Shown here piece by piece: positions 1,261 to 16,549 of a DNA stretch of 19,561 bases. The stretch lies in the IMG/VR virus record IMGVR_UViG_2585427752_000010. One strand, given 5' to 3'. The position numbers and the translations under genes are program-made. The notes beneath the pieces are model-generated. The model worked only from the letters and a program-made list of their open reading frames with translations. It ran no database searches and was not told where the DNA came from. Every line of letters starts with the position of its first letter. Within the stretch, counting starts at the first letter, position 1. The DNA is from a virus. Taxonomy: Duplodnaviria > Heunggongvirae > Uroviricota > Caudoviricetes.

Positions 1261-1355
1261 CTGAATAGATTGAGCCTAGCTCGACGGGGCGAAAAGCGGG
1301 AAGCCTTACCGCCTGGCTCAATCACAAAATAAGGCGCAGCGTAAAAGGTGACGCA

Positions 1356-2321
1356 ATGAACGACTCTCATGAAACAACGGTGGTGCATAGAAATTTATGG
1401 CAGGAATCAGGTATTCCACCTTTGGACTACTGCACGATAGAGCGAGCATCAAAATTATTAAATTGTGAAATTGATGATATATGGCATTGGAAAGATAGAC
1501 TACATATAGACTTTTATGTCTATGCTGACTTTCTTGATTTCATTGAATCTGATGCCACCATCCACTTCAAAAAAGATGCTAATTTTATAACTGATTTATT
1601 ACTTATGTACCCAGAAGAAGTAAGGTTTACATTTCCTTTTCTTATTACCAGCGCAAGCAACGAAGTTTATATCCCAGCATCTGAAAGCGGTGCTTATGAG
1701 CTATTTTATGCACATAAACCACTGACAGTTGAAGACAGCGACAATAAAAATGTTTTTGAACAAATTGGCAAAAACTCTTTTATCGTAAGAAAATCAATCG
1801 CATGTGGATTGTTGCGTGTATGCGGTAGAACAACACGACATTATCATTCACAAGAATGTGGAGAACCATATGTGCGACTTGAAGCAACATTTGATTGTGA
1901 TCTATATAAATTCAAAATGCAAAGTTCCCAAATTCACCTGAGTAGCCTGTCAGATAAAAACATTTATATAACAAAGGCTGATTTAGAATACCTTCATGAC
2001 GCAAAGGTTAATGGAAGTTTTGACGCAGCTAAGAGCAAAAAACGATACGAAATGGCGGTAGAACAGGAACTAATACCTGAAATAAAAAATAGCAACCATA
2101 ATGCCGAGAGACATGCTGAAAACAGGGAAAAACTTTTCAAATCTGCAATATATCTTTTGTCAAAGTATCCTGATGAATGCCGTGGCAAAAAGAAAGAAAT
2201 AAGCCCTGAGAAGTGGCGGGATTGCATAGTGGCTCATAAAGACGAAATTCCACCGTTAGCAATCACAAATGAAGATGTGATTTTGAGACACTTACGTGCT
2301 GCCGCCAACGGTAAGGGGTAG
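1356..2321 (+). CDS. hypothetical protein, AT-rich orphan gene between int and alpA
   Basis: 321-aa ORF, ATG at 1356 preceded by AAAAGGTGA RBS; markedly AT-richer than its neighbours; no motif recognisable by eye; followed by a terminator-like hairpin. Confidence 0.75.
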   Translation: MNDSHETTVVHRNLWQESGIPPLDYCTIERASKLLNCEIDDIWHWKDRLHIDFYVYADFLDFIESDATIHFKKDANFITDLLLMYPEEVRFTFPFLITSASNEVYIPASESGAYELFYAHKPLTVEDSDNKNVFEQIGKNSFIVRKSIACGLLRVCGRTTRHYHSQECGEPYVRLEATFDCDLYKFKMQSSQIHLSSLSDKNIYITKADLEYLHDAKVNGSFDAAKSKKRYEMAVEQELIPEIKNSNHNAERHAENREKLFKSAIYLLSKYPDECRGKKKEISPEKWRDCIVAHKDEIPPLAITNEDVILRHLRAAANGKG

Positions 2322-4091: not shown

Positions 4092-4522
4092 CCGTCCAGA
4101 AGAAGACATTTTCACTGGCTGGTATGTCGCCAAAATCCAGCAATATGACGGCAAAGTCAGGCATTAATACAGCAGATACAAGCAAAGTTTATCATTTGCT
4201 GGTGGTCGGAACGGATGCCTTAACCATATCAGAAATCTCGGGCGATGATATTAGCATTGAGAAGGTCAGCGGCTGCGCCAGAGAATTTCTGGTCGTAGAT
4301 GACCTGTTCTGCTCGCGTAGTGACTCCACAAAAACATTCGTCCACGCGCGTGACGTTAACGAAATGAGCGCGATGTACTGTGCTTCTGGTTCTTCCAATA
4401 GTGAGTTTTCGGAGTCCATAAAAAAGAGCTTGCCGTTATGCGGCAACACGGTTTATGGTTATAAGGCACCTCATAAAACGGGTGCCGGGTTTCGCAGCCC
4501 GGAAATGTACGAGGCGACACAT

Positions 4523-4544
4523 GACGCGCCGAGCGTCTTTTTTT
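4523..4544 (+). terminator. putative intrinsic terminator inside the ambiguous 4085-4746 region
   Basis: GACGC-gccga-GCGTC hairpin followed by TTTTTTT. Confidence 0.35.
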
Positions 4545-4746
4545 GTGCCGTTAGCCAGACTCACACTTTTTTCAGTGATGTGGTTATAATCCGCGTCGCT
4601 TGCAAAATTATGGTGGGCTGGACAGGGCAGCCGAAAGGCTGGCCGGTTTCCTTGTACGCCGGTACTGCGAACTCTGTTCAGTCCACCACCAGCGAGTTTC
4701 GCAGCTCCGGTGGTGGGAAGAATTCCCAGTACAAGGAGGCTGCCAC

Positions 4747-6764: not shown

Positions 6765-7128
6765 AAATGCAGAAATGGCGCTTAGCTCCGCAATCGGAGA
6801 GCAGGTGGCAAAGATTGCTGGTGCTGTGTGGATTCATAACCTTCATTCTACTGGTGAAGAGAAAATGGCAATTCAGACGCCAGAGGGACGCACCATTACT
6901 ACATCTCTGAAGCCGTCAGATGTTTGTGATCTGATTTGCGCATTCATGTACCCAGCAATGAGGACTGTCCACGGCGATAAGTGGAAACTTGCGACAACCG
7001 CTGAATTTGATATGTGGCTAAACAATGATGGCATGCTGACTGATTACGGAATAACCAAGTGGCAGATGCTGGTTAGCCATATCGCAAACGCTATAGACCA
7101 CGTGGGGTACGGTGATGCGAAACATTGA
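6757..7128 (+). CDS. hypothetical protein (123 aa)
   Basis: ATG at 6757 with GGAGG RBS; 3' end overlaps the primase start. Confidence 0.7.
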   Translation: MRENAEMALSSAIGEQVAKIAGAVWIHNLHSTGEEKMAIQTPEGRTITTSLKPSDVCDLICAFMYPAMRTVHGDKWKLATTAEFDMWLNNDGMLTDYGITKWQMLVSHIANAIDHVGYGDAKH

Positions 7129-9466
7129 TCTTATCCGTCAGGTTATCAGTGCGTCTGAAAACAACTGGCCTCATGTGCTGGGCTGCCTGAACATAAATGT
7201 CCCTGACTCTCCGCGCCGTCATGCTCCCTGCCCTGCATGTGGGGGCAAAGATCGATTCCGGTTCGATGACAACGGGCGCGGTAGCTTCATCTGTAATCAG
7301 TGCGGCGCTGGTGATGGGCTGGATTTAATTAAACGCGTAAATAACTGCGACACAACAGAGGCGGCGCTTCTTGCCGCTGATGTTCTGGGTATTGATTACC
7401 GGACAACGGAAACACCAGAAGCCACCAGCCAGAAACGGGAACAACTGGAAACCGAGCGCCAGCGACGCGAACAGGAGCGCCTGAAAAGGGCAGAGAAGGA
7501 CGAACAACAAAGACGGGATACGTTTTCCCGTCAGTTTGATGACATGCGCAGAAAGGCTGTAAACGGCAAATCTGATTATCTGGTTGCGAAAGGGGTAGGT
7601 GATTTTACATTCCCCGTGTTGCCCGATGGATCTCTGTTGCTGGCGCTGGTGGATAAATCCGGCGCAGTCACAGCAGCACAGACTATTACCTCACATGGTG
7701 AAAAAAGACTCCTGACAGGTTCGGCAAAGCGGGGGGCATATCACGCCATAAACGCACAGAAACGACCTCACAGCATCATAATTGCTGAGGGGGTGGCTAC
7801 CGCCCTGTCGTGCCATTTAATTCGCCCTGACGCAATGACAGTGGCAGCAATCGACGCTGGCAACCTGTTGCCAGTAGCGGAAGTCATGCGCAGAACATAT
7901 CCGCAGGCACAAATAATCATTGCTGCAGATAACGATCACCAGCAAGGAGACTCAGAAAGTGGAGGGATCAACACGGGGAAAGATGCCGCAGAGAGGGCCG
8001 CTATTTCCGTAGCTGGCAGGGTGTCTCTGCCACCGACTGACTATAAAGCCGACTGGAACGACTATCACCAACAACACGGGCTGGCGGCAGCCACAGCAGC
8101 ATTTAAAGATTCGATGTACCAGCCACGGGGGAAAGGGGCGCAGGTGAAAAATCACAAACAGTCAGTCGGGGCGCTGAATGAGATCAGTTCTGGCGAGGTG
8201 TTAAGCGATGATGAAATTGCTGTCCTCGAAGAAATCAACCGGACGTTTACGCATGTCACCATCGGCGGGAAACACAAGGTGGGGTCGCTAAAGCCTTCTC
8301 AAACCGGCGGTGTATCGCACGTTTTCGAGGATTTATCACAATTTCAGCATTATTTTCATCATAAACCGAGAGTCGCCAGAAAGCTGGCGGGATCGGCGTG
8401 GCTGTCATGGAGTGGGAAGAACTACAAGCCAGGAGGCGTAGGATTTTATCCAGTACCAGACAAATGCCCTGACGATGTTTTTAATCTGTATGAGGGGCTG
8501 GCACTGGAACCAATTGAAGGAGATTGCACGGTATACCTTAATCACCTGTTGCAGGTTGTCTGTGCCGGTAATGAAGAGGCATACCAATATCTTATCCAGT
8601 GGATGGCGCACATTATCCAAAAGCCTGATGAAAAACCGTCCGTGGCAATCGTGATGAAATCTGTCCCGGGCACAGGGAAAGGCACAACGGTTAAACCGCT
8701 GCTGCAAATACTGGGGCAGTACGCCGCCCACATTAACGGGGCGGGACATATTTCAGGGCGCTTCAATTCAATACTTGCTAACAAGCTACTGGTATTTGCT
8801 GACGAAGTGACGATCCACAAGCCGTCTGAAGCTGACAGACTTAAAGCGATTATTAGCGAACCGACGTTTAACCTTGAGCGCAAGGGAATTGATGCTGAAC
8901 CAATGCCGAATTTTGCCCGGTTGATATTTGCCAGTAACAGCACACAGGTATTACAGGCAGGGATAAGAGAGCGTCGCTATCTCGTGCTTGAGCCATCTCC
9001 TGAAAAAGCACAGAGCCGGGAGTATTTTGATCGGCTGTACAGTTGGCTTAATGATGGCGGTGCCGCAAAGTTGCTTTGGCATCTTAAAGGGGTGGATCTC
9101 TCAGGTTTTGACCCTCAACGAGCGCCACAGACCGATGCCTTACGTGAAGAAATCTTGCTGGGGCTGTCTGGCGTTGAATTGTTTCTTTATGGCGAGCTAA
9201 TCAATGAACCTCCGTTTAATGGCGAAGTCCGTTTGTTTGCAAAGGATATGGTTAGTCGGTTTGTAGCGTGGTCGCTTGAGCGTGGGGAAAAGCTTAAAGA
9301 ACCAGCTGCCAGATCACTACTGGGTAAATCACTTGCACAAATGGGGCTGGTGAAGCATGGAAGACCAGACCGAGGGAATGGCGTGTTCTACGAACTACCA
9401 GAGGTCGGAGTTCTACAGGCTGCGTTTGCCCGTCTGATCGGTATGGGGGGTTATGATGTTTTTTAA
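7112..9466 (+). CDS. P4-alpha-like bifunctional primase-helicase
   Basis: 784 aa; N-terminal zinc ribbon CPACGG...CNQCG; TOPRIM-like motifs IIIAEGVATA and IIAADNDH; C-terminal P-loop NTPase region with Walker A-like PGTGKGTT and Walker B-like LLVFADEV. Start may be GTG 7112 or ATG 7115. Confidence 0.9.
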   Translation: MMRNIDLIRQVISASENNWPHVLGCLNINVPDSPRRHAPCPACGGKDRFRFDDNGRGSFICNQCGAGDGLDLIKRVNNCDTTEAALLAADVLGIDYRTTETPEATSQKREQLETERQRREQERLKRAEKDEQQRRDTFSRQFDDMRRKAVNGKSDYLVAKGVGDFTFPVLPDGSLLLALVDKSGAVTAAQTITSHGEKRLLTGSAKRGAYHAINAQKRPHSIIIAEGVATALSCHLIRPDAMTVAAIDAGNLLPVAEVMRRTYPQAQIIIAADNDHQQGDSESGGINTGKDAAERAAISVAGRVSLPPTDYKADWNDYHQQHGLAAATAAFKDSMYQPRGKGAQVKNHKQSVGALNEISSGEVLSDDEIAVLEEINRTFTHVTIGGKHKVGSLKPSQTGGVSHVFEDLSQFQHYFHHKPRVARKLAGSAWLSWSGKNYKPGGVGFYPVPDKCPDDVFNLYEGLALEPIEGDCTVYLNHLLQVVCAGNEEAYQYLIQWMAHIIQKPDEKPSVAIVMKSVPGTGKGTTVKPLLQILGQYAAHINGAGHISGRFNSILANKLLVFADEVTIHKPSEADRLKAIISEPTFNLERKGIDAEPMPNFARLIFASNSTQVLQAGIRERRYLVLEPSPEKAQSREYFDRLYSWLNDGGAAKLLWHLKGVDLSGFDPQRAPQTDALREEILLGLSGVELFLYGELINEPPFNGEVRLFAKDMVSRFVAWSLERGEKLKEPAARSLLGKSLAQMGLVKHGRPDRGNGVFYELPEVGVLQAAFARLIGMGGYDVF

Positions 9467-9495
9467 TATAGTCTTTTTACAAGAAGATCGTTTTT

Positions 9496-9600
9496 ACCTG
9501 TACCACCTATACCACTTTGCTAATTCAGCATTAAAAACAATGTGTTATAGTGGTACAGGTCAATATCTTACCTATACCAGACCTGTACCACCTATACCAT
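9496..9600. repeat. iteron cluster 1 (putative origin-type repeats) just downstream of the primase
   Basis: ACCTGTACCACCTATACCA at 9496-9514 and 9581-9599, inverted partial copy GTGGTACAGGT at 9550-9560, and partial copy CCTATACCAG at 9571-9580. Confidence 0.6.
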
Positions 9601-9642
9601 TAACAAACGCATTTCTTCTGGCTGGCTGAGAGGGAACAACCA

Positions 9643-9873
9643 ATGATGAGCACACCATTTTACAAAGTGCGCCAGTTAGCTTCTTCCTCTGGCTGGCAGC
9701 TACGGTTTGAGGGGCGTTCAGACTGGCTACCCATTGCGGCATGGGCGAATGTTGAAATGTGTATTGACGGCGATACCGTTGAAATCATTATTCCCTGCGT
9801 GGCAAGTCGGGACGGCTGTATAGAGCCAACAGATATGGCAGCAGAAATCAGAGAGGTAAAACATGAGCAATAA
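9643..9873 (+). CDS. hypothetical protein (76 aa)
   Basis: ATG at 9643 preceded by GAGAGGGAA; stop overlaps the next gene's start. Confidence 0.6.
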   Translation: MMSTPFYKVRQLASSSGWQLRFEGRSDWLPIAAWANVEMCIDGDTVEIIIPCVASRDGCIEPTDMAAEIREVKHEQ

Positions 9874-10600
9874 CTATTGCATACCGCAGGGAATGACCAG
9901 AACGGAGCGCGAAGAATTAAAAAGTTTCGCTACACAGTGCGGGAATGCTGGCGACATCCAAAGTCTGGAACGCACTTTAATTATGATTGCGCACTGGATG
10001 CGTCAGGGGCAAAGGGTTTCATTTACTGAATATGCCAGCCAGTGGACAGAGGCACAGCGCGAACGGAGCGACGGTAATCACTCAACACCCGAAATGGCGA
10101 AGCAATGGCCTTTCAGTGGTAAACGCTGTATCAGTCCCGGTGGTTCAGATTATTACCCTGCTGGTGTGGGAGATGAGCCATGTTGTGACGAGACTGAAAT
10201 CCGCCACGCAGTGACAGTAATTACCGCTGAATACCCACAATTTAACCTTGACGGACTGGCGCTCCACAACCGGAATGCGGACTGGGAAAACCCGCTTGAT
10301 AACCCGTCATTTATCGTATCGGCGAAAAGCTGCCTGAGATGGATCAGAGACAACGGGATGAGTAATGCCCAGATTGAGAGCTTCCCGCAGGATAACCCCA
10401 CATCTGACACGTTGAAGCATGAAGTGGAGCGATATAACCAGATAAACCACCAGCACAGTGATCACCCGCACTATATCCCCAACGGAGCATTTATTGCGGC
10501 GATGGTGGCAAGCGGCTACAAGGTTAAGCCAGCGGGAAGAATGAACGCATTTTTCAATATTTCAAAAAAGGGATTATGTGCTGCTATGGGTAAAAATTAA
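9863..10600 (+). CDS. hypothetical protein (245 aa)
   Basis: ATG at 9863 preceded by GAGAGG; Cys- and His-containing product with no motif recognisable by eye. Confidence 0.7.
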   Translation: MSNNYCIPQGMTRTEREELKSFATQCGNAGDIQSLERTLIMIAHWMRQGQRVSFTEYASQWTEAQRERSDGNHSTPEMAKQWPFSGKRCISPGGSDYYPAGVGDEPCCDETEIRHAVTVITAEYPQFNLDGLALHNRNADWENPLDNPSFIVSAKSCLRWIRDNGMSNAQIESFPQDNPTSDTLKHEVERYNQINHQHSDHPHYIPNGAFIAAMVASGYKVKPAGRMNAFFNISKKGLCAAMGKN

Positions 10601-10605
10601 ATAAA

Positions 10606-10709
10606 TGGTACAGGTCTGTACAGGTGGGGAGAGGTCATTTTTACCCACCTGTACCACCTGCAGGCCGCGTCACACAAGGGTTTGTGACATGGTGGTACAG
10701 GTGGTACAG
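10606..10709. repeat. iteron cluster 2 (same GGTACAGG/CCTGTACC family)
   Basis: TGGTACAGGTCTGTACAGGTGGG (10606-10628), inverted CCCACCTGTACCACCTG (10644-10660), TGGTGGTACAGGTGGTACAGC (10689-10709), plus a GTCACA-N8-TGTGAC inverted repeat (10669-10688). Confidence 0.6.
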
Positions 10710-11074
10710 CAAAAACAGCGATTTTCTTTATAAGGTATGTTTTGCTCATCTGGCAGACGGAGGTATTCGCTGCGGTTTGGCACATAGCCCAGAACAGCAA
10801 AGAGTTTTACGAGACTTTTGTAAAATCCAGTGTACAAGGGCGTGACGTTTTTGAAGGAGAGACCTACGAAATTTTCGTAGTTCAAAAAATAGCCTCTGAG
10901 ATGTTGTTATGCCTGTTCAGCAAACCATCCGCATAGCTGATCGCGAATCAAATTACCAATGGAGCCAGAAGCAAGGGCAGAACTGGAAAGCGCCTGCCGT
11001 GAAGAGTAATGCGACATCGTAAATATAGTTTTTAGAGTCCATAAAAAAACTGTCAAAACCTGACATACAGAACG

Positions 11075-11108
11075 ATGCCACCAGCTACTGAGCGGTGGCA
11101 TTTTTTTG
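11075..11108 (+). terminator. rho-independent terminator
   Basis: ATGCCACC / GGTGGCAT perfect 8-bp stem with 11-nt loop, followed by TTTTTTT. Confidence 0.65.
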
Positions 11109-11169
11109 TGCTATTTGTTTCATATTTTGCAATTACGATGATGAATATTGCGATTTGTGAAACTATAAT

Positions 11170-11189
11170 AACTGTTGTTTTATACAGTT
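11170..11189 (+). promoter_or_regulatory. LexA-box-like site (CTGT-N8-ACAG) between a TATAAT element and the operon's first RBS
   Basis: AACTGTTGTTTTATACAGTT: CTGT at 11172-11175, 8-nt AT-rich spacer, ACAG at 11184-11187; a consensus -10 TATAAT lies at 11164-11169 and the RBS AAGGGGG at 11192-11198. Confidence 0.4.
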
Positions 11190-11202
11190 CTAAGGGGGCG
11201 TT

Positions 11203-11364
11203 ATGGCTATTTCAGTAAAGCCGGTATTGATAAGTGAGAAGCAAATGGAAGCGATAAAGAAAATTCAGGAAGAGCAGCGTAAAAAATCAGGAATTGGAGT
11301 AGCGCCAACTCTGCATGAAATTGCTCGAGGGTTAATAGATAAGGCGCTGGCAGGCTGTATGTGA
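11203..11364 (+). CDS. small DNA-binding-like protein (possible ribbon-helix-helix), 53 aa
   Basis: Not in the ORF track (below its size cutoff). ATG at 11203 with strong RBS TAAGGGGGCG; product MAISVKPVLISEKQMEAIKKIQEEQRKKSGIGVAPTLHEIARGLIDKALAGCM has a strand-helix-helix-like pattern. Confidence 0.45.
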   Translation: MAISVKPVLISEKQMEAIKKIQEEQRKKSGIGVAPTLHEIARGLIDKALAGCM

Positions 11365-11380
11365 AAATGGATGGCATCGC

Positions 11381-11842
11381 ATGGAACTAAAATTTATTGA
11401 TAACCCTGTGCGATTACAGGCCTTTCTTAACGATCCTGGCAATACCGAAAATATTGTTGAGCCGGGGCACACGTACTACATCAAGCCTGATGCGGTATAT
11501 CTCGGCATCTACGAAGGATTGGTGCTGGCTGGCGTTCATGAAGTGCGTAACTTCTGGCATAGCATTGTTGAATGCCATGCGGTGTACGACCCCGGATTCC
11601 GTGGTGAATATGCACTGCAAGGGCATCGATTATTCTGCAAATGGCTTCTCGAAAACTCACCATTCCTTAACAGCATCACTATGGTTCCTGACACCACGAA
11701 ATACGGACGGGCAATTATCCGTTTGCTTGGCGCTACCCGTGTTGGTCACCTTGATGATGCTTATATCAGATGTGGTAAACCCGTCGGCGTAACGCTTTAT
11801 CAGTTAACTCGGCAACAATATAAGGAATTCAGCGAATGTTAA
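11381..11842 (+). CDS. hypothetical protein (153 aa), second gene of the operon
   Basis: ORF starting 17 nt after the small gene; stop overlaps the next start (ATGTTAA). Confidence 0.75.
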   Translation: MELKFIDNPVRLQAFLNDPGNTENIVEPGHTYYIKPDAVYLGIYEGLVLAGVHEVRNFWHSIVECHAVYDPGFRGEYALQGHRLFCKWLLENSPFLNSITMVPDTTKYGRAIIRLLGATRVGHLDDAYIRCGKPVGVTLYQLTRQQYKEFSEC

Positions 11843-12513
11843 TTACCCATATAGCTCATAAACATCTCAATCGTGCCGTATACGAAAAAGGCGGTGATGG
11901 TGGTGCCTCTAAAGCTCAGGCGAAGGCCCAGCAGCAGGCAATTGATTTGCAGCGCGAGCAGTGGAATACGGTGATGAATAATCTCAAGCCGTATGCAGAA
12001 GTCGGATTGCCTGCTTTACAACAACTACAAGGACTGATGACTCTGGAAGGGCAGAATAAAGCCGCGAATGATTTCTTTGGTTCTGGTTTATATAAAACAC
12101 AGGCAGATCAGGCCCGTTATCAGAACCTTGTCTCAGCAGAAGCTACCGGGGGGCTTGGCTCAACAGCTACCAGTAACCAGTTATCTTCCATTGCGCCCAT
12201 GCTTTATAACAATTGGCTTAGTGGGCAAATGCAAAATTATGGAAACCTGCTAAATGTCGGGATGAATGCGGCATCAGGACAGGCAACGGCAGGGCAAAAC
12301 TACGCCAATAATACCGGACAACTCTTGCAGGGGCTTGGCGCTATTCGTGCAGGTCAGGCGCAGCAGCCATCCAGTCTTGCGCGTGGTATTGGTGGGGCAG
12401 CATCAGGCGCTTTAGCGGGTGCGCAACTTGGTTCCGTTGTTCCTGGAATAGGTACTGCGGCAGGCGCTATTGGTGGTGGGCTTATTGGTCTTGTTGGGGG
12501 GCTTGGATTCTAA
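11836..12513 (+). CDS. Gly/Ala/Gln-rich protein with C-terminal glycine-zipper hydrophobic segment (225 aa)
   Basis: AAGGAA RBS; low-complexity Q/A/G/N-rich body; C-terminus GIGGAASGALAGAQLGSVVPGIGTAAGAIGGGLIGLVGGLGF has repeated GxxxG spacing typical of membrane-inserting glycine zippers. Confidence 0.75.
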   Translation: MLITHIAHKHLNRAVYEKGGDGGASKAQAKAQQQAIDLQREQWNTVMNNLKPYAEVGLPALQQLQGLMTLEGQNKAANDFFGSGLYKTQADQARYQNLVSAEATGGLGSTATSNQLSSIAPMLYNNWLSGQMQNYGNLLNVGMNAASGQATAGQNYANNTGQLLQGLGAIRAGQAQQPSSLARGIGGAASGALAGAQLGSVVPGIGTAAGAIGGGLIGLVGGLGF

Positions 12514-13826
12514 TGGCGACATGGCAACTTGGCGGGCTGCCTAGCATGGCACCGCAAAATGATAATGCTCCTCGTTCTTCCGTTCCTCAGCCTGTGCAGT
12601 ATCAGCAGCAGCCAAACGTAGGTTTAATGGCGCTACAGGGGCTAAGAGGCGTTGCTGAGATTAATCAGCAGGCGCAAATTTCCCAGCAGCTAAAAGAATA
12701 TCAGGCACGGTTGGGTAGTGCGGTAGCTAATAATGATCGTGTTGGCGTGCAGAAGTTAATGGCCCAGTATCCCCAGTTTATGGCTGATTCTCAAAAACAG
12801 ATGGGATTCATTGATGCTGAGCAAAATCGGCAGACCGCTGACGCTGCCATGAATCTGCGTCTTGCGTCACAAACTGGAGATCCACTGACCATGCAGAAGG
12901 CCATTCAGCAGGCAAATCCAGTATTACAGCGATTTGGTCTTCCTGCTGAAGAGGTTTATCAGTCTTGGCAGAATGACCCACAGGAATTCAACAGAATCAC
13001 TGACCTCATCCACCTCCATGCTGATCCAAATAGTTACTTTAGTGTTCAAGAGAAGCAGCAAGGGCAGAGTATTGCACAGCAGAACGCAGATACATCTGCA
13101 TATAATGCTCAGGTTAATGCGGAACAGGGTAATCGGCGTCTCGATATGGAGCAGTTCAAAGCCCTATCCGATAACCAGCTACGCACGAGAGAAATGGTTC
13201 TGAAAGCACGACTTGGACGTGCTCAAAATGACATCGAGAGAGACAAGCTCAATGCTGAACTGAGCAAGGTACAGCAGGCGAAAGTGGAGAAGATGAACGA
13301 TAAAATTAATACTGTTGTAGGTAACATCGACTCCTTGAACTCTGCGCTTGAAGTGGGTCATGAACTGGCGGGAATTGTAGGGAAACATCCTTCGGCCGTT
13401 ACCCGTTCGCAGAACTATAACCCCCTGACGCTGGGGTTTGGATTCCTTCCTGATGTAGCAGAAGACACACGAAGCCTACGCGCCAAAGCTGATGAATACA
13501 ACCTAAAGGTTATTCTGCCTAGCCTCAAAGGGACTTTTGGCTCTAACCCAACCGAAGGGGAAAGGGCTGCCCTTATGCAATCTCAAAATGGCATTAAGTC
13601 AGCAACCAGCAATGAGGCATTTTTGCGAGAGTTGAATAAAGCGCAGGACGTAATTATTCGAATGCAGAAACGACAGATTGCCGGGCTCGGTATTCCTGTA
13701 ACCAAATCTAAGGACGAAGAAACTGATACCAAAATGCTGTTGCAGGATCCTTCTCTGGTTAAGGATTATGTGACCGCACATGGCTATCTGCCGGAAAGTT
13801 ACTATCAGGCAAAACTTAAGGGATAG
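12513..13826 (+). CDS. Gln-rich, probably coiled-coil protein (437 aa)
   Basis: ATG overlaps the upstream stop (TAATG); Q-rich N-terminal half and charged, heptad-like central region. Confidence 0.8.
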   Translation: MATWQLGGLPSMAPQNDNAPRSSVPQPVQYQQQPNVGLMALQGLRGVAEINQQAQISQQLKEYQARLGSAVANNDRVGVQKLMAQYPQFMADSQKQMGFIDAEQNRQTADAAMNLRLASQTGDPLTMQKAIQQANPVLQRFGLPAEEVYQSWQNDPQEFNRITDLIHLHADPNSYFSVQEKQQGQSIAQQNADTSAYNAQVNAEQGNRRLDMEQFKALSDNQLRTREMVLKARLGRAQNDIERDKLNAELSKVQQAKVEKMNDKINTVVGNIDSLNSALEVGHELAGIVGKHPSAVTRSQNYNPLTLGFGFLPDVAEDTRSLRAKADEYNLKVILPSLKGTFGSNPTEGERAALMQSQNGIKSATSNEAFLRELNKAQDVIIRMQKRQIAGLGIPVTKSKDEETDTKMLLQDPSLVKDYVTAHGYLPESYYQAKLKG

Positions 13827-13828
13827 CA

Positions 13829-16549
13829 ATGATGGCACAACTGACAGAAAAACAGAAAGCCTATTCCCGTCATCTCGATGAAAAATATGGTTTCCCATCA
13901 GGGACGATGGAAACATTAGTTGGCAATGAATCTAGTGGTAACGGAAGTGCCGAGTCACCGAAAGGAGCTAGAGGATTTGCTCAACTGATGCCCTCAGTAA
14001 TGAGTGATGCTGGTTATCGTGGAACAGATCCGCGCTCACTGCCATTTGAAAAGCAAATGGATATCGCAGCAAACCATCTCAATAAAGGAATGAAGCGATT
14101 TGGTGATATAGGTATGGCATTGGCTGGGTATAATTCTGGCTATGCTCGTATTAATGCCGTAAGAAACGGTAAATCTACACTGCCAGATGAAACGGCTAAT
14201 TACGTAAGTAAATTTGCAGATGCCGGAATAATCCCTGATGACAGTGAAATCTTGCAGTTTGCACAAACCAGTCAACATCGCAATCTTCAGCAGCCTGACT
14301 ACTCAGAGCTTGATAAAGAAATCTCTCAGGTGGGAGATATTTCTGCATGGGAAGCAAAACGTCAGCAATTTAAGAACATAGAAGCAGGACTACCAACAGC
14401 CAGTTCATGGGAGCAGAAAAGAGCTCAGTTTCTCGCCGATGAAAATGCCGGGGAACCGCAGCAGCAAGTAGCCAAGTCTAACCTTAATCCTGAGATGGAA
14501 TATCTTTCGCCAGGACTGAAAGCTGCGCCAGAGCAGATGGCCAGAGGGATTGCTAATATACCGTTTGATGTAATGGACGCAGGCGTGGGGGTAGTCAATG
14601 CGGCGCAATCAGCCGGAGCATGGGCAGCTCAGAAGCTTGGTGTGGGTGATGGCACATACACGCCCATATCACCTGTCTTTCGCCCAGTAGACCAACCTAC
14701 AGATCCATACGCGCAGGCTGGTGAGCAGCTAGCACCTTACCTTATTACAGGATTAGGTGCAGGAAAGGCAGCTACCGCAGCTTCTTCAGTTGCCAACGCT
14801 CCACGTGCTGAACGTGCGGCCACAAAGGTGGCTAGTATGTTGGCAGAAAACCTGCCAGGTACATTGGTGAACGCCCAAAAGAACGGGCAGATCAGCCCAG
14901 AAGACCTAGCAAAAGAGACAGGTATTGGCCTAGCAGGATCGCTAGGAGCACGCGCTTTAATAAAGAGCGGACAGACAGCCAGTGACGTAATGCGAGATGT
15001 ATTGCGGAGTAATACAAATCAATCAGGCCATGTGTTAGGGGCAGCAAATACTCTGGAAACCGCCAATGATGTATCGAAAGCAGCGCGTTCTGCCGTAGGC
15101 CGAGAGCATATCGCATCGCAGGCATCAAACGTCAGAGATGATGTCGCTAAGGCGGCGAAAATTACTGGTATTAATATCAACACCCTGACGCCTGGAATGC
15201 GCTCAGGTAGTCGTGGAATTGCCCAAGCAGAAGGTGTTCTGGCATCAACTCCTGGGAATGTTCAGGATGCTCACCTTACGGCCTTCAATGAAATATCCTC
15301 AAAGTTGAATAAGCAGTTGTCTGATTTCGGTGCTGAGTCTGGAAGCGCATCAGAAAAAAGCGCAGCAATTAAAGAGCGCATCATCGCGAGCCTCAGTGAT
15401 ATGAAAACAGCAGAGAATATGGCATGGGCAGAACTGCGAAGCACGATGCCACGCGAAAGGATGAAAATGAGTAATGGGATGGCTGTCGTCCAAGCAGAAA
15501 AAGCAGCCAATGTTCCACTCAGCCCGGAGATGAAACAGTTTCAGGCTGCCAACAACCAAGGTGGCGGCATAACCTTCGACGGGATGAAGGCATGGCGTGC
15601 TAAGTTTGCTGATGCTGAACAAGCAAACACCCGGGCAGGTAAGGCCAATGCCGCCCGGATTGCCGGAGAAATGCGCAGAGCTATCACTGATGACATGCGC
15701 ATCATGGCTGAAAAAGGAAACTTCCTCACAGAATGGCAGAAAGCTAACGATCTCTCTAAAAGTTACATTATCGCCAAACAAAATGCCGAATCTGTTTTTG
15801 GTCGAGATCTCGCATCAGACGCTATGGTAAGAAAAGGTGCCGATACGCTTAAGGCATCCGCAAACACTGGAACGGGAGCTTTTCACCGTCTTATCTCCGC
15901 GCTGCCGGAAGCAGAACGCCAACCAGCAATAGCATCTATTCTTCAGCATGCTGTGGCGCAGGGAGAGAAGGGAGGAATCGGTGAAGAATCTGGTATCCAG
16001 TATTTTGCCAAGCTCATGACCCAGCAGAATGTAAACGCCATCAGTCGTCATGCGCCAGATCTCGGTAGAATGATGAAAGAGTTCGGTGTACTCGCTAAAG
16101 CCAGCACCAGACCGCAGCGATACGTAGAGCGCACGGGAAGAACAACTGAGGCTCTCAAAACGCTCGATTCAGGCCTTCCAAAGATCGTCGGCGTGATTAT
16201 GAACGGAGTTCAACAGTCAGGTGCGATCGCTGGAGGCTTTGGCGGTGGTGTAATTGGTTCGATTAGTGGTTTGGTTGCTGGTGGCGCGCTGAGAAATACT
16301 GTGGCTAAGATTGGGGCGACAAGAAGTGGTAGATATGCGATAGAGAAAGCCGTTCAGGAAGCTACAAAAGCAGTGCGCGCAGGGGCATCACCAGCAGCGA
16401 TCGCCGCAGCAGAGAAACGATTTTCGGCCAATAAAATTGCCATGAAAGCAATTCGTGATGCCGTTGGGGCTGAAGAATTCGTGAAACTGACAAGGGCCGG
16501 GATTGTAGCTACCCTCAGTGGCATGAAAGATGTTAGCGAATGGGAATAG
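13829..16549 (+). CDS. large protein with N-terminal lytic transglycosylase (SLT) domain and C-terminal Gly-rich hydrophobic segment (906 aa)
   Basis: N-terminal NESSGNGSAESPKGARGFAQLMP fits the SLT catalytic ES...GA.G..QLMP pattern and ALAGYNSGYARI fits the AYN.G motif; long Ala-rich body; near the C-terminus GGFGGGVIGSISGLVAGGAL. Confidence 0.85.
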   Translation: MMAQLTEKQKAYSRHLDEKYGFPSGTMETLVGNESSGNGSAESPKGARGFAQLMPSVMSDAGYRGTDPRSLPFEKQMDIAANHLNKGMKRFGDIGMALAGYNSGYARINAVRNGKSTLPDETANYVSKFADAGIIPDDSEILQFAQTSQHRNLQQPDYSELDKEISQVGDISAWEAKRQQFKNIEAGLPTASSWEQKRAQFLADENAGEPQQQVAKSNLNPEMEYLSPGLKAAPEQMARGIANIPFDVMDAGVGVVNAAQSAGAWAAQKLGVGDGTYTPISPVFRPVDQPTDPYAQAGEQLAPYLITGLGAGKAATAASSVANAPRAERAATKVASMLAENLPGTLVNAQKNGQISPEDLAKETGIGLAGSLGARALIKSGQTASDVMRDVLRSNTNQSGHVLGAANTLETANDVSKAARSAVGREHIASQASNVRDDVAKAAKITGININTLTPGMRSGSRGIAQAEGVLASTPGNVQDAHLTAFNEISSKLNKQLSDFGAESGSASEKSAAIKERIIASLSDMKTAENMAWAELRSTMPRERMKMSNGMAVVQAEKAANVPLSPEMKQFQAANNQGGGITFDGMKAWRAKFADAEQANTRAGKANAARIAGEMRRAITDDMRIMAEKGNFLTEWQKANDLSKSYIIAKQNAESVFGRDLASDAMVRKGADTLKASANTGTGAFHRLISALPEAERQPAIASILQHAVAQGEKGGIGEESGIQYFAKLMTQQNVNAISRHAPDLGRMMKEFGVLAKASTRPQRYVERTGRTTEALKTLDSGLPKIVGVIMNGVQQSGAIAGGFGGGVIGSISGLVAGGALRNTVAKIGATRSGRYAIEKAVQEATKAVRAGASPAAIAAAEKRFSANKIAMKAIRDAVGAEEFVKLTRAGIVATLSGMKDVSEWE

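What the first reader, a model, noticed from the sequence alone, without database searches (positions are those of the whole stretch)
9643..10600. Two unknown proteins between the iteron clusters
A 76-aa and a 245-aa protein (the latter Cys/His-containing, with no recognisable motif) occupy the position immediately after the replication gene, where satellites often carry interference or accessory functions.
Basis: inference. Interest (0 to 1): 0.35.

Follow-up and report, generated by a model that had tools for sequence, protein, structure and literature searches.

The report
Two accessory genes inside satellite origin
Two real but uncharacterised genes sit between the two origin repeat clusters of an E. 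coli phage-satellite island; they are optional early accessory genes, with no evidence that they interfere with a helper phage.

Summary
ORF76 (9643-9873) and ORF245 (9863-10600) follow the primase-helicase gene. They lie between two clusters of GGTA[C/T]AG iterons (9496-9599 and 10606-10710). Both are conserved across genera and under purifying selection.

The island is a P4/PICI-type satellite. It has an integrase, an AlpA-like gene, AntA/Ash, a C4/isrK immunity RNA, a primase and captured P22-like ejection genes.

ORF245 has no Pfam, NCBIfam, PADLOC or PDB match. It is a fusion of two autonomous domains of unknown function: N (phrog_4935) and C (phrog_9576/17839). A confident model of the C domain has winged-helix topology but no significant structural neighbour. 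There is no conserved Cys/His cluster.

Relatives are the first gene after origins of at least five iteron types and three initiator types, usually just before SSB. They also occur in Mu-like prophages. Only 1 of 80 related primase loci carries this family, so it is an optional gene in a variable slot.

ORF76 lies between the two iteron clusters in every locus that has both.

The most likely role is early-expressed binding factors acting on the element's DNA transactions. Helper interference is neither supported nor excluded. The finding is ordinary to modestly interesting.

The parts
7112..9466 (+). Primase-helicase (Zn-ribbon, Toprim, DUF5906), the replication initiator just upstream. Context, not part of the finding.
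   Evidence: Pfam and PHROG hits. It is 25-65% identical to P4 alpha and to the primases of related islands.
9496..9599 (.). Iteron cluster A: six GGTA[C/T]AG copies in orientations - - + - - -, next to an AT-rich stretch. Probably the origin proper.
   Evidence: for the repeats. GC is 0.28 at 9450-9549. The position matches P4 crr and the PICI ori downstream of pri.
9643..9873 (+). ORF76: small acidic protein (pI 4.6) with the conserved motif PCVA..G.IEPTD. It lies between the two iteron clusters in every locus that has both.
   Evidence: A distant relative sits directly before SSB in L040.
9863..10177 (+). ORF245 N domain (residues 1-105): helical, with motifs ERExLK, AHWMRQ, F.EYA..W and WP..G.R.I. 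It also exists as stand-alone proteins of about 90-120 aa (phrog_4935).
10184..10597 (+). ORF245 C domain (residues 108-245): winged-helix topology, with motifs SYGLKH..E, YI.NGAFIAA and NA.FNIS. It also exists as stand-alone proteins of about 120-140 aa (phrog_9576 / phrog_17839).
   Evidence: AF2 model has pLDDT 93.4. The best Foldseek PDB match has E = 0.72.
10606..10710 (.). Iteron cluster B: four GGTACAG copies in orientations + - + +. It is a partial direct repeat of cluster A and is crr-like.
11067..11109 (+). Hairpin followed by a T-run. Likely the terminator that ends the primase-ORF76-ORF245 transcription unit, before the captured late genes.
   Evidence: (inverted repeat I16). No terminator-like site lies in the primase-ORF76 gap (9466-9643) or after ORF245 before this hairpin. 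The scan does list a weak hairpin inside ORF76 at 9764-9782, so co-transcription remains an inference.

Best explanation
ORF76 and ORF245 are genuine accessory genes, probably co-transcribed. They sit in the variable slot just downstream of the origin of a P4/PICI-type phage satellite.

Shown:
- In E. coli and Buttiauxella they lie inside a bipartite iteron origin.
- They have no intervening terminator after the primase gene.
- They are conserved under purifying selection.
- ORF245 is a fusion of two autonomous domains. Its C domain has winged-helix topology, and the C-domain family is basic overall.
- The family recurs as the first gene after origins with different iterons and initiators, typically just upstream of SSB. 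It also occurs in the early regions of Mu-like prophages.
- It is absent from most related replicons.

Inferred:
- They are made early, together with the primase, when the island is induced or enters a cell.
- They act by binding a conserved nucleic-acid structure or a conserved host or element protein, and so assist the element's DNA transactions. This could be replication, establishment or protection of the DNA, alongside SSB.
- They do not sabotage a particular helper phage's capsid or packaging machinery.
- ORF76 is embedded in the origin and is the more replicon-linked of the two. It may modulate the primase-iteron complex.
For: Real genes:
- ORFs with SD sequences and RefSeq calls.
- Homologues in Raoultella, Buttiauxella, Salmonella, Pantoea and Xenorhabdus.
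- dN/dS of 0.09-0.28.

Origin context:
- Iteron statistics and the cluster A/B relationship.
- AT-rich trough at cluster A.
- P4 places crr iterons right after alpha.
- The PICI ori lies downstream of pri.
- No terminator-like site between the primase stop and ORF76. The first one downstream of ORF245 is at about 11084-11108.

ORF76 lies between the clusters in four genera, whereas ORF245 is inside or outside them.

Two-domain architecture and stand-alone forms:
- 837 profile hits. Among the 186 retrieved proteins, 52 are N-only, 102 C-only and 26 carry both.

Position after origins with iterons GGTACAG, TGTTCACC, GTGTTCAT, GTAGGGAT and AAGTGGGGAGTGAAA, and after three initiator types: DUF5906 primase, D5_N/Pox_D5 primase and AAA_25 Rep.

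SSB, ProQ and PerC follow the gene.

Mu-like contexts.

C domain:
- Model with pLDDT 93.4 and pTM 0.90, topology H-S-H-H-S-S.
- The weak Foldseek hits are nearly all winged-helix proteins.
- Median pI of the C-domain family is 8.9.
Against: - No biochemical function is demonstrated for any member. Every named homologue is 'hypothetical protein'.
- The Foldseek matches are not significant: best E is 0.7 and probability is at most 0.3.
- The helix in the recognition-helix position (NGAFIAAMVA) is hydrophobic and is the most conserved segment. That is atypical for a sequence-specific DNA binder.
- The window's own C domain is slightly acidic, pI 6.4.
- Only 1 of 80 related primase loci has the N/C family and 1 of 80 has ORF76. 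They therefore cannot be needed for replication as such.
- Some C-domain proteins lie in non-mobile contexts.
- Co-transcription with the primase is inferred from the absence of predicted terminators, not measured.
Confidence: 0.45

Rival explanations
1. Counter-defence or host-takeover factors. These would be optional early proteins that neutralise a host nuclease or immune system, or otherwise condition the host. The analogy is the anti-restriction and anti-SOS genes that accompany ssb in plasmid leading regions.
For: - Distribution among related replicons is sporadic: 1 of 80.
- The domains are shuffled in many ways: N-only, C-only, N+C, C+C and P-loop+N.
- The family occurs in satellites, Mu-like early regions next to Gam, and plasmids.
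- It is adjacent to SSB.
- It is independent of replicon and helper type.
Against: - No hit to PADLOC or to any known anti-defence family.
- dN/dS is low (about 0.1) and divergence parallels the primase. That differs from the fast turnover expected of arms-race genes.
- C-domain homologues occur in apparently chromosomal biosynthetic loci.
- The leading-region analogy comes from general knowledge and was not tested here.
Confidence: 0.22
2. Helper-phage interference or hijacking factor. The proteins would bind a helper component, such as a terminase, capsid, scaffold or late regulator, to favour satellite packaging and reduce helper yield.
For: - Satellites often place such genes after the replication module, for example rppA in EcCICFT073.
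- The genes sit at the border with a late zone holding captured P22-like gp14/gp7/gp20/gp16 genes.
- A C-domain-only homologue precedes an Ogr/Delta-like gene in a P4-like element.
Against: - No sequence or fold similarity to RppC or any other solved structure.
- Homologues occur in islands with different or no recognisable late cargo.
- Homologues occur in Mu-like prophages, which have no helper.
- The family is not found by tblastn in 50,697 phage genomes, so there is no sign of mimicry of a helper protein.
Confidence: 0.13
3. Sequence-specific transcriptional regulator. The winged-helix C domain would switch on or off the downstream late zone or PerC, with the N domain acting as a sensor or oligomerisation module.
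For: - Winged-helix topology and weak matches to MarR, ArsR, PadR, BlaI and TubR proteins.
- Basic median pI of the C-domain family.
- Small C-domain proteins are embedded in operons of non-mobile loci.
- Tandem two-copy forms exist.
- The gene sits at the replication/late-zone boundary.
Against: - The putative recognition helix is invariant and hydrophobic across very different genomic contexts. Operator-specific regulators vary in that helix.
- No conserved operator-like repeat other than the primase iterons was found next to the gene in different replicons.
- The Foldseek hits are not significant.
Confidence: 0.15
4. The ORFs are chance reading frames or decayed remnants, and the DNA merely acts as a spacer between the two iteron clusters.
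For: - Spacing between iteron clusters matters in P4-type origins (general knowledge).
- In a P4-like relative (L009) the clusters are contiguous, with no ORF76 between them.
Against: - Intact frames across at least five genera.
- 17 invariant residues in ORF76 and 48 in ORF245.
- pN is well below pS.
- Hundreds of domain homologues exist.
Confidence: 0.02

Closest known systems
Satellite phage P4 replication region (alpha primase-helicase, ori and crr iterons)
   Same: - The initiator is a homologous primase-helicase, 25% identical to P4 alpha.
- Short iterons occur in both orientations immediately downstream of the initiator gene.
- The origin is two-part and repeated. P4 crr is two 120-bp repeats. 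Here there are two related clusters.
- A related island (L006) uses the P4 type-1 iteron TGTTCACC.
- The window also has P4-type C4/isrK immunity RNA.
   Different: - The two clusters here are about 1.1 kb apart and enclose protein-coding genes. P4 crr repeats are 60 bp apart.
- P4 encodes no ORF76, N-domain or C-domain homologue.
- The island has no recognised sid, psu or delta genes, although not every ORF was scanned. It carries P22-like ejection genes instead.
Gram-negative PICI / helper-embedded satellite (HES) genome plan (Tommasini, Mageeney & Williams 2022, doi 10.1101/2022.07.18.500453)
   Same: - The zone order is the same: Integration (int, AlpA-like HTH), Bro (AntA, Ash with C4/isrK RNA), Replication (primase/DUF5906, ori downstream, SSB in relatives), then Late (captured helper late genes).
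   Different: - The paper's Replication category lists only Primase, SSB and DUF5906.
- ORF76 and the N/C-domain family are not described there, and no paper mentions their accession numbers.
- This island sits between yicC and dinD, or at another chromosomal site in ETEC H10407, not inside a prophage late gene.
Rpp (RppA/B/C), the PICI protein that redirects helper TerS (PMC6739421)
   Same: It is a satellite accessory protein encoded beyond the replication module and made by the island itself.
   Different: - Rpp is 144-153 aa and RppC has a solved structure.
- ORF245 and its domains match no PDB chain by sequence or profile. No Rpp structure appears among the top 50 Foldseek matches listed for each model.
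- The context also differs: ORF245 relatives are linked to SSB and occur in Mu-like phages.
PHROG families phrog_4935 (N domain) and phrog_9576 / phrog_17839 (C domain)
   Same: - 13 of 40 N-domain relatives hit phrog_4935.
- 33 of 40 C-domain relatives hit phrog_9576 and 24 of 40 hit phrog_17839.
- The window's own C domain hits phrog_9576 at E = 2e-4.
   Different: - All three families are annotated 'unknown function', so membership gives no mechanism.
- The window's N domain itself does not reach the PHROG threshold.
Winged-helix (wHTH) nucleic-acid-binding domains (MarR/ArsR/PadR/BlaI, TubR, ROQ)
   Same: - Secondary-structure order is H-S-H-H-S-S in a confident model.
- Nearly all the top weak structural matches are wHTH proteins.
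- The family pI is basic.
   Different: - No significant match: E is at least 0.7 and TM-scores are about 0.2-0.36.
- The helix at the recognition position is hydrophobic and invariant.

Membership tests
P4/PICI-type satellite replication module | Integrase plus AlpA-type regulator, with genes running in one direction | tested here: met
   The integrase at 1-1260 has Arm-DNA-bind_3 and Phage_integrase domains. RefSeq annotates the 67-aa protein at 2436-2639 as an HTH regulator. An int-alpA RNA lies at 1269-1335.
P4/PICI-type satellite replication module | Primase-helicase initiator with iterons (ori/crr) immediately downstream | tested here: met
   Primase domains. Ten iteron copies in two clusters, against 1.2 expected for the core heptamer. 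AT-rich trough at cluster A. Same position as P4 crr. Origin activity itself was not tested.
P4/PICI-type satellite replication module | ORF76 or ORF245 required for origin function | tested here: not met
   78 of 80 related primase loci lack both families, and SSB is the first gene after the origin in 41 of them. This is a comparative inference, not an experiment.
Rpp (redirecting phage packaging) | Sequence or fold homology to RppA/RppC | tested here: not met
   No PDB sequence or profile hit at E up to 10 other than chance matches. No Rpp structure appears among the top 50 Foldseek matches listed for each model.
Rpp (redirecting phage packaging) | Binds helper TerS and blocks helper packaging | not testable with these tools
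   Needs two-hybrid or plaque assays.
Zinc-finger / Cys-His metal-binding protein | A conserved cluster of three or four Cys/His ligands | tested here: not met
   Only C89 and C157 are invariant in the close family. No Cys is invariant in the N-domain or C-domain families, and H79 is the only invariant His.
Winged-helix nucleic-acid-binding domain | H1-S1-H2-H3-S2-S3 topology | tested here: met
   AF2 model of residues 108-245 has pLDDT 93.4. It shows helices 41-56, 74-88 and 100-109, a bridge at about 62, and strands 114-118 and 121-124.
Winged-helix nucleic-acid-binding domain | Significant structural similarity to solved wHTH domains | tested here: inconclusive
   Nearly all the top hits are wHTH proteins, but E is 0.7-3 and probability is at most 0.3.
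Winged-helix nucleic-acid-binding domain | Binds DNA or RNA | not testable with these tools
   The only indirect sign is a median family pI of 8.9, against 6.4 for the window's own domain.
PHROG phrog_9576 / phrog_17839 (C domain) and phrog_4935 (N domain) | HMM match at E <= 1e-3 | tested here: met
   The window's C domain matches phrog_9576 at E = 2.3e-4. Among relatives, 33 of 40 and 24 of 40 match the two C-domain families. For the N domain, 13 of 40 relatives match phrog_4935, but the window's own N domain does not.
Known anti-phage defence or anti-defence proteins | Match to a PADLOC or Pfam defence or anti-defence model | tested here: not met
   No PADLOC hit at E up to 1. No Pfam hit.
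P4 crr-overlapping ORF (P4p05) | Sequence similarity to ORF76 | tested here: not met
   BLASTP finds no alignment at E up to 100.

The most novel reading that the evidence does not exclude
The ORF245 family would be a previously unrecognised class of early proteins of mobile elements. Its N and C modules work alone or fused. Its conserved winged-helix-like C domain, with invariant S-Y..K-H..E, N-G and N positions, would recognise a conserved structure rather than a sequence, for example a DNA end, ssDNA/dsDNA junction or RNA, or the SSB tail. Satellites, Mu-like phages and plasmids would use it to protect or prime their DNA for replication, or to evade host defence. ORF76 would be an origin-embedded modulator of the P4-type primase-iteron complex.
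Probability: 0.2. Interest if true: 0.55.

Novelty: new member of a known kind. Interest (0 to 1): 0.3.

Why it matters
If characterised, these genes would give a function to three PHROG families that are currently 'unknown'. They would also fill a gap in the gene map of Gram-negative satellites: the variable slot between the origin and SSB.

About 130-143 of 5,426 complete E. coli genomes carry this module, including ETEC H10407. Its domains recur in several hundred protein clusters across mobile elements.

ORF76 is an origin-embedded small protein. ORF245 is a modular two-domain protein independent of replicon and helper. Each now has a concrete set of experiments.

As it stands this is a pair of conserved hypothetical accessory genes in a known type of element. 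It is useful but not surprising.

Tried and rejected
- **Curated libraries.** Pfam, NCBIfam, PADLOC and PDB sequence searches on both proteins found nothing. PHROGs gave only one weak hit of unknown function.
- **PDB profile searches.** Profiles of the N and C domains gave only chance hits at E above 5.
- **Foldseek.** The full-length model against PDB and BFVD, and the C-domain model against PDB, gave nothing at E <= 1e-3. The one BFVD hit, at E = 3e-3, is an unnamed protein.
- **Rpp homology.** Rejected.
- **Zinc-finger reading.** Rejected, because there is no conserved Cys/His cluster.
- **ORF76 against the P4 ORF that overlaps crr.** No similarity.
- **Fusion partners of longer homologues.** These were searched for functional clues. 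Only weak Glyoxalase_8-like N-terminal motifs turned up.
- **tblastn against phage genomes.** No hit for ORF245 or a stand-alone N domain, and one weak hit for a C domain.
- **The search for related loci with the C-domain alignment.** Failed because no sufficiently conserved stretch exists.
- **Anti-SD hairpin.** I tested whether the conserved TCTGGC..GAGAGG element upstream of ORF76 forms a hairpin that sequesters the ribosome-binding site. Folding energies equal those of shuffled sequences, z about 0, in four species. Rejected.
- **C4/CI-like RNA pairing.** I checked by eye whether the C4/CI-like RNA is complementary to that motif. It is same-sense, not complementary. Rejected.
- **Rfam on 10600-11250.** No credible RNA family.
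- **Literature.** Searches for the accession numbers and for satellites with ejection proteins found nothing relevant.
Full report

Yes. The six-frame ORF list contains 9643-9873 (+, 76 aa, ATG) and 9863-10600 (+, 245 aa, ATG). They overlap by 11 nt. Each is preceded by a GAGAGG-type ribosome-binding site. RefSeq annotates exactly these frames as hypothetical proteins WP_000987941.1 and WP_000070012.1.

They start 177 nt after the stop of a 784-aa protein at 7112-9466. That protein has Zn_Ribbon_Prim, Toprim_3 and DUF5906 domains, so it is a P4-alpha-like primase-helicase.

The 'iteron clusters' are also real. GGTACAG occurs 10 times in the window against 1.2 expected, and none of 200 shuffles reach 10. 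Seven copies, plus three GGTATAG variants, form two clusters:
- Cluster A, 9496-9599, orientations - - + - - -.
- Cluster B, 10606-10710, orientations + - + +.

The clusters share a core of about 75 nt in direct register, about 1145 nt apart (families D6 and D12). Cluster A sits in an AT-rich trough of GC 0.28, as expected next to an unwinding element.

**2. What is the element?**

The window is a chromosomal island of E. coli. In strain 2016C-3878 it lies between yicC and dinD. The same backbone occurs at another site, with a different integrase, in ETEC H10407.

From left to right it carries:
- a tyrosine integrase and an int-alpA RNA;
- an AlpA-like HTH protein;
- AntA, DUF4222 and Ash-type genes, with a C4 antisense RNA and isrK inside them. 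This is the P4-type immunity RNA system;
- the primase;
- iterons, ORF76, ORF245, iterons;
- a terminator-like hairpin at 11067-11109;
- homologues of the P22 genes gp14, gp7, gp20 and gp16;
- PerC.

This is the four-zone plan of Integration, Bro, Replication and Late, with captured helper late genes. Tommasini, Mageeney and Williams described it for Gram-negative PICIs and helper-embedded satellites, and they note that the ori lies downstream of pri.

In P4 itself the crr element lies immediately downstream of alpha. It consists of two 120-bp repeats full of type-1 iterons. Clusters A and B therefore look like a bipartite, crr-like origin.

The module of primase 3' end, iterons and both ORFs is present at 95% identity or more in 130-143 of 5,426 complete E. 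coli genomes.

**3. Are the ORFs genes?**

Yes.

ORF245 has 29 database clusters in E. coli, Raoultella, Enterobacter, Salmonella, Buttiauxella and Xenorhabdus, down to 41% identity. Forty-eight columns are invariant.

ORF76 has relatives in Raoultella, Pantoea, Salmonella, Buttiauxella and Xenorhabdus, with 17 invariant columns.

Nei-Gojobori estimates:

| Gene | Compared with | pN | pS | dN/dS |
|---|---|---|---|---|
| ORF76 | Buttiauxella | 0.26 | 0.59 | about 0.28 |
| ORF245 | Buttiauxella | 0.24 | 0.74 | about 0.09 |
| ORF245 | L003 | 0.24 | 0.71 | about 0.14 |

Synonymous sites are near saturation. ORF245 diverges about as fast as the primase: 63% against 65% identity in Buttiauxella.

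**4. Anatomy of ORF245**

Pfam, NCBIfam, PADLOC and PDB sequence searches are all empty.

An exhaustive profile search of 1.84 billion representatives found 837 proteins at E <= 1e-3. Almost all match only half of the profile. Among the 186 proteins retrieved, 52 carry only residues about 8-104, 102 carry only residues about 108-243, and 26 carry both. ORF245 is therefore a fusion of two autonomous domains.

- **N domain.** Motifs are ERExLK, (I)AHWMRQ, F.EYA..W and WP..G.R.I..G.SD[WY]. Invariant residues are E17, K20, F54 and Y57. It is helical. It corresponds to phrog_4935, of unknown function.
- **C domain.** Motifs are SYGLKH..E, YI.NGAFIAA, G[FY] and NA.FNIS. Invariant residues are S74, K78, H79, N100 and G111 in domain numbering. 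It corresponds to phrog_9576 and phrog_17839, both of unknown function.

There is no conserved Cys/His cluster. The 'Cys/His-containing' remark therefore has no functional weight.

AlphaFold2 gives pLDDT 82 for the whole protein. For the C domain with a 40-sequence alignment it gives pLDDT 93.4 and pTM 0.90. The C domain has the winged-helix order of elements: helix, short strand, helix, helix, then a beta-hairpin.

Foldseek finds no significant neighbour in PDB or BFVD. The weak top hits, at E 0.7-3, are nearly all winged-helix proteins such as MarR, ArsR, PerR, BlaI, RosR, TubR and ROQ.

The C-domain family is basic, with a median pI of 8.9. The window's own copy is not, at pI 6.4.

The helix that would be the recognition helix is hydrophobic and is the most conserved part of the domain. 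This argues against a sequence-specific operator binder. It favours a conserved ligand instead, although that step is inference.

All named relatives are 'hypothetical protein'.

**5. Genomic associations**

The N, C or N+C gene is the first gene after the origin in several settings:
- islands whose initiator is a DUF5906 primase: the window, Xenorhabdus L002/L018/L019, Buttiauxella L014 and the P4-like L009;
- islands with a D5_N/Pox_D5 primase: L006, L008, L017 and L020;
- islands with an AAA_25 Rep: L003-L005.

The intervening 250-430 nt hold iterons of at least five different sequences: GGTACAG, TGTTCACC (the P4 type-1 repeat), GTGTTCAT, GTAGGGAT and AAGTGGGGAGTGAAA.

The gene is usually followed directly by SSB, then ProQ and/or PerC.

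The fused form also occurs in two Mu-like transposable prophages. In one it lies after MuA, MuB and Gam. In the other it lies after MuA, MuB and Mor. These elements have no iteron origin and no helper.

More distant C-domain proteins occur in a phage head-gene region and in apparently chromosomal polysaccharide loci of Ignavibacteria-like contigs.

I also sampled 80 IMG/VR contigs encoding related primases. The first gene after the primase is SSB in 41, ProQ in 8 and assorted small unknown families in the rest. The N/C family appears once and ORF76 once. A third locus, L040, has a distant ORF76 relative directly before SSB (hhalign probability 85%, E = 6.5e-6).

The post-origin position is therefore a variable slot, and ORF76 and ORF245 are optional occupants. 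They are not core replication genes.

**6. ORF76 and ORF245 behave differently**

Cluster A lies between the primase and ORF76 in E. coli, Buttiauxella and Xenorhabdus innexi. In X. ehlersii it is degenerate. What lies inside the clusters differs:
- Cluster B follows ORF245 in E. coli and Buttiauxella.
- Cluster B lies between ORF76 and ORF245 in Xenorhabdus.

ORF76 is thus the constant inhabitant of the space between the clusters. ORF245 may be inside or outside.

In a P4-like relative with the same iteron (L009), the plus- and minus-oriented copies are contiguous, with no ORF76 between them. This suggests ORF76 was inserted into a crr-like repeat pair, or lost from one.

ORF76 is small and acidic, pI 4.6. 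It has no similarity to the P4 ORF that overlaps crr.

**7. Most likely mechanism**

Shown:
- The genes are real.
- There is no predicted terminator in the gap between the primase and ORF76. After ORF245 the first terminator-like site on the + strand is at about 11084-11108. One weak hairpin is listed inside ORF76.
- They lie in a variable post-origin slot.
- They are independent of replicon and helper type.
- They are linked to SSB.
- They are shared with Mu-like early regions.

Inferred:
- They are expressed early, together with the primase.
- They act by binding. The C domain would bind a conserved nucleic-acid structure or a conserved protein partner. ORF76 may bind the primase-iteron complex.
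- This supports replication, establishment or protection of the element's DNA.

I give this coarse reading 0.45. The rivals are:

| Reading | Confidence | Main argument |
|---|---|---|
| Counter-defence or host takeover | 0.22 | Favoured by patchy distribution and domain shuffling. Disfavoured by slow evolution and the absence of any known motif. |
| Sequence-specific regulator of the late zone | 0.15 | Favoured by the fold. Disfavoured by the invariant hydrophobic 'recognition' helix. |
There is no similarity to Rpp and the family occurs where there is no helper. |
| Non-genes | 0.02 | Contradicted by the conservation data. |

**8. Comparison with what is known, and novelty**

The element is a member of the known P4/PICI/HES satellite world. 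The bipartite iteron origin resembles P4 ori/crr.

The two proteins belong to families that exist in PHROGs but have no assigned function. I found no paper mentioning them. I therefore rate the finding as a new member of a known kind: uncharacterised accessory genes in a known slot of a known element type. Interest is 0.3.

The most novel reading not excluded is a new class of early proteins of mobile elements with a structure-specific winged-helix-like module, plus an origin-embedded primase modulator. I give it probability 0.2 and interest 0.55 if true.

**9. Dead ends**

- The conserved TCTGGC..GAGAGG element upstream of ORF76 occurs 4 times against 0.47 expected. It does not fold better than shuffled sequence. 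It is not complementary to the C4-like RNA.
- Rfam finds nothing between cluster B and the late zone.
- Fusion partners of longer homologues are uninformative.
- tblastn against 50,697 phage genomes finds essentially nothing.

Noticed in passing
window 11381-16549; also L001 15930-19513, L022 15082-18527, L034/L035/L047/L048: The satellite's late zone consists of homologues of the P22 genes gp14 (DUF2824), gp7, gp20 and gp16, the last fused to a lytic transglycosylase. Sister islands and IMG/VR relatives carry different variants of the same genes. Satellites that bring their own DNA-ejection proteins do not appear in the papers I could search. This looks more interesting than the finding I was given.
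   Followed up: partly
window 1269-1335, 4466-4543, 4606-4693: Rfam finds an int-alpA RNA (60.6 bits), isrK (69 bits) and a C4 antisense RNA (81 bits). The last two lie inside the Ash-like ORF. The island therefore uses a P4/P1-type RNA immunity system.
   Followed up: partly
window 10851-10889: A 39-nt stretch containing a short hairpin is 95% identical to the ant1/ant2 region of the P1-like phages RCS47 and phi456. It lies in the ORF-free stretch between iteron cluster B and the terminator.
   Followed up: no
window 4412-4550 and 11034-11109; L002 about 11085-11100: The pattern 'GAGTCCATAAAAAA ... hairpin ... TTTTTTTGTGC' occurs twice. One copy is at the isrK locus and the other is just before the late zone. 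GTCCATAAAAAA also recurs at the equivalent place in Xenorhabdus. This could be a second short regulatory transcript, but Rfam finds nothing there.
   Followed up: partly
window 4111-4122, 9614-9625, 9685-9696, 10035-10046(-): The motif TYCTCTGGCKRG occurs 4 times against 0.47 expected. One copy lies just upstream of ORF76. Similar elements precede ORF76 in Buttiauxella, and precede both ORFs in Xenorhabdus. No stable RNA structure was found. Its meaning is unknown.
   Followed up: partly
L030-L109 (IMG/VR primase loci), first 1.3 kb after the primase gene: The slot after the origin is highly variable. SSB comes first in 41 of 80 loci and ProQ-like in 8. The rest hold many small unknown families, for example a recurrent protein of about 130 aa ('fam5') in L038, L039, L092 and L105.
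   Followed up: partly
window 1356-2321: The 321-aa ORF right after the integrase is replaced by an unrelated 216-aa protein in otherwise near-identical islands (L001, L023). It has a weak PADLOC hit to PDC-S31, E = 0.002. This may be a variable defence-type cargo slot.
   Followed up: no
L027 3705-4669, L028 5422-6387; proteins P0166, P0103, P0184: C-domain proteins of 128 aa in Ignavibacteria-like contigs sit between a Glyoxalase gene and a carbamoyltransferase gene in two independent contigs. One longer C-domain protein (P0166) has a weak Glyoxalase_8-like N-terminal hit, and P0103 and P0184 carry what looks by eye like the same motif. The recurrence is unexplained.
   Followed up: no
L006 5722-5949: A related island with a D5_N/Pox_D5 primase uses iterons identical to the P4 type-1 repeat (TGTTCACC). 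It has the stand-alone N-domain gene, then SSB, ProQ and PerC after them.
   Followed up: yes
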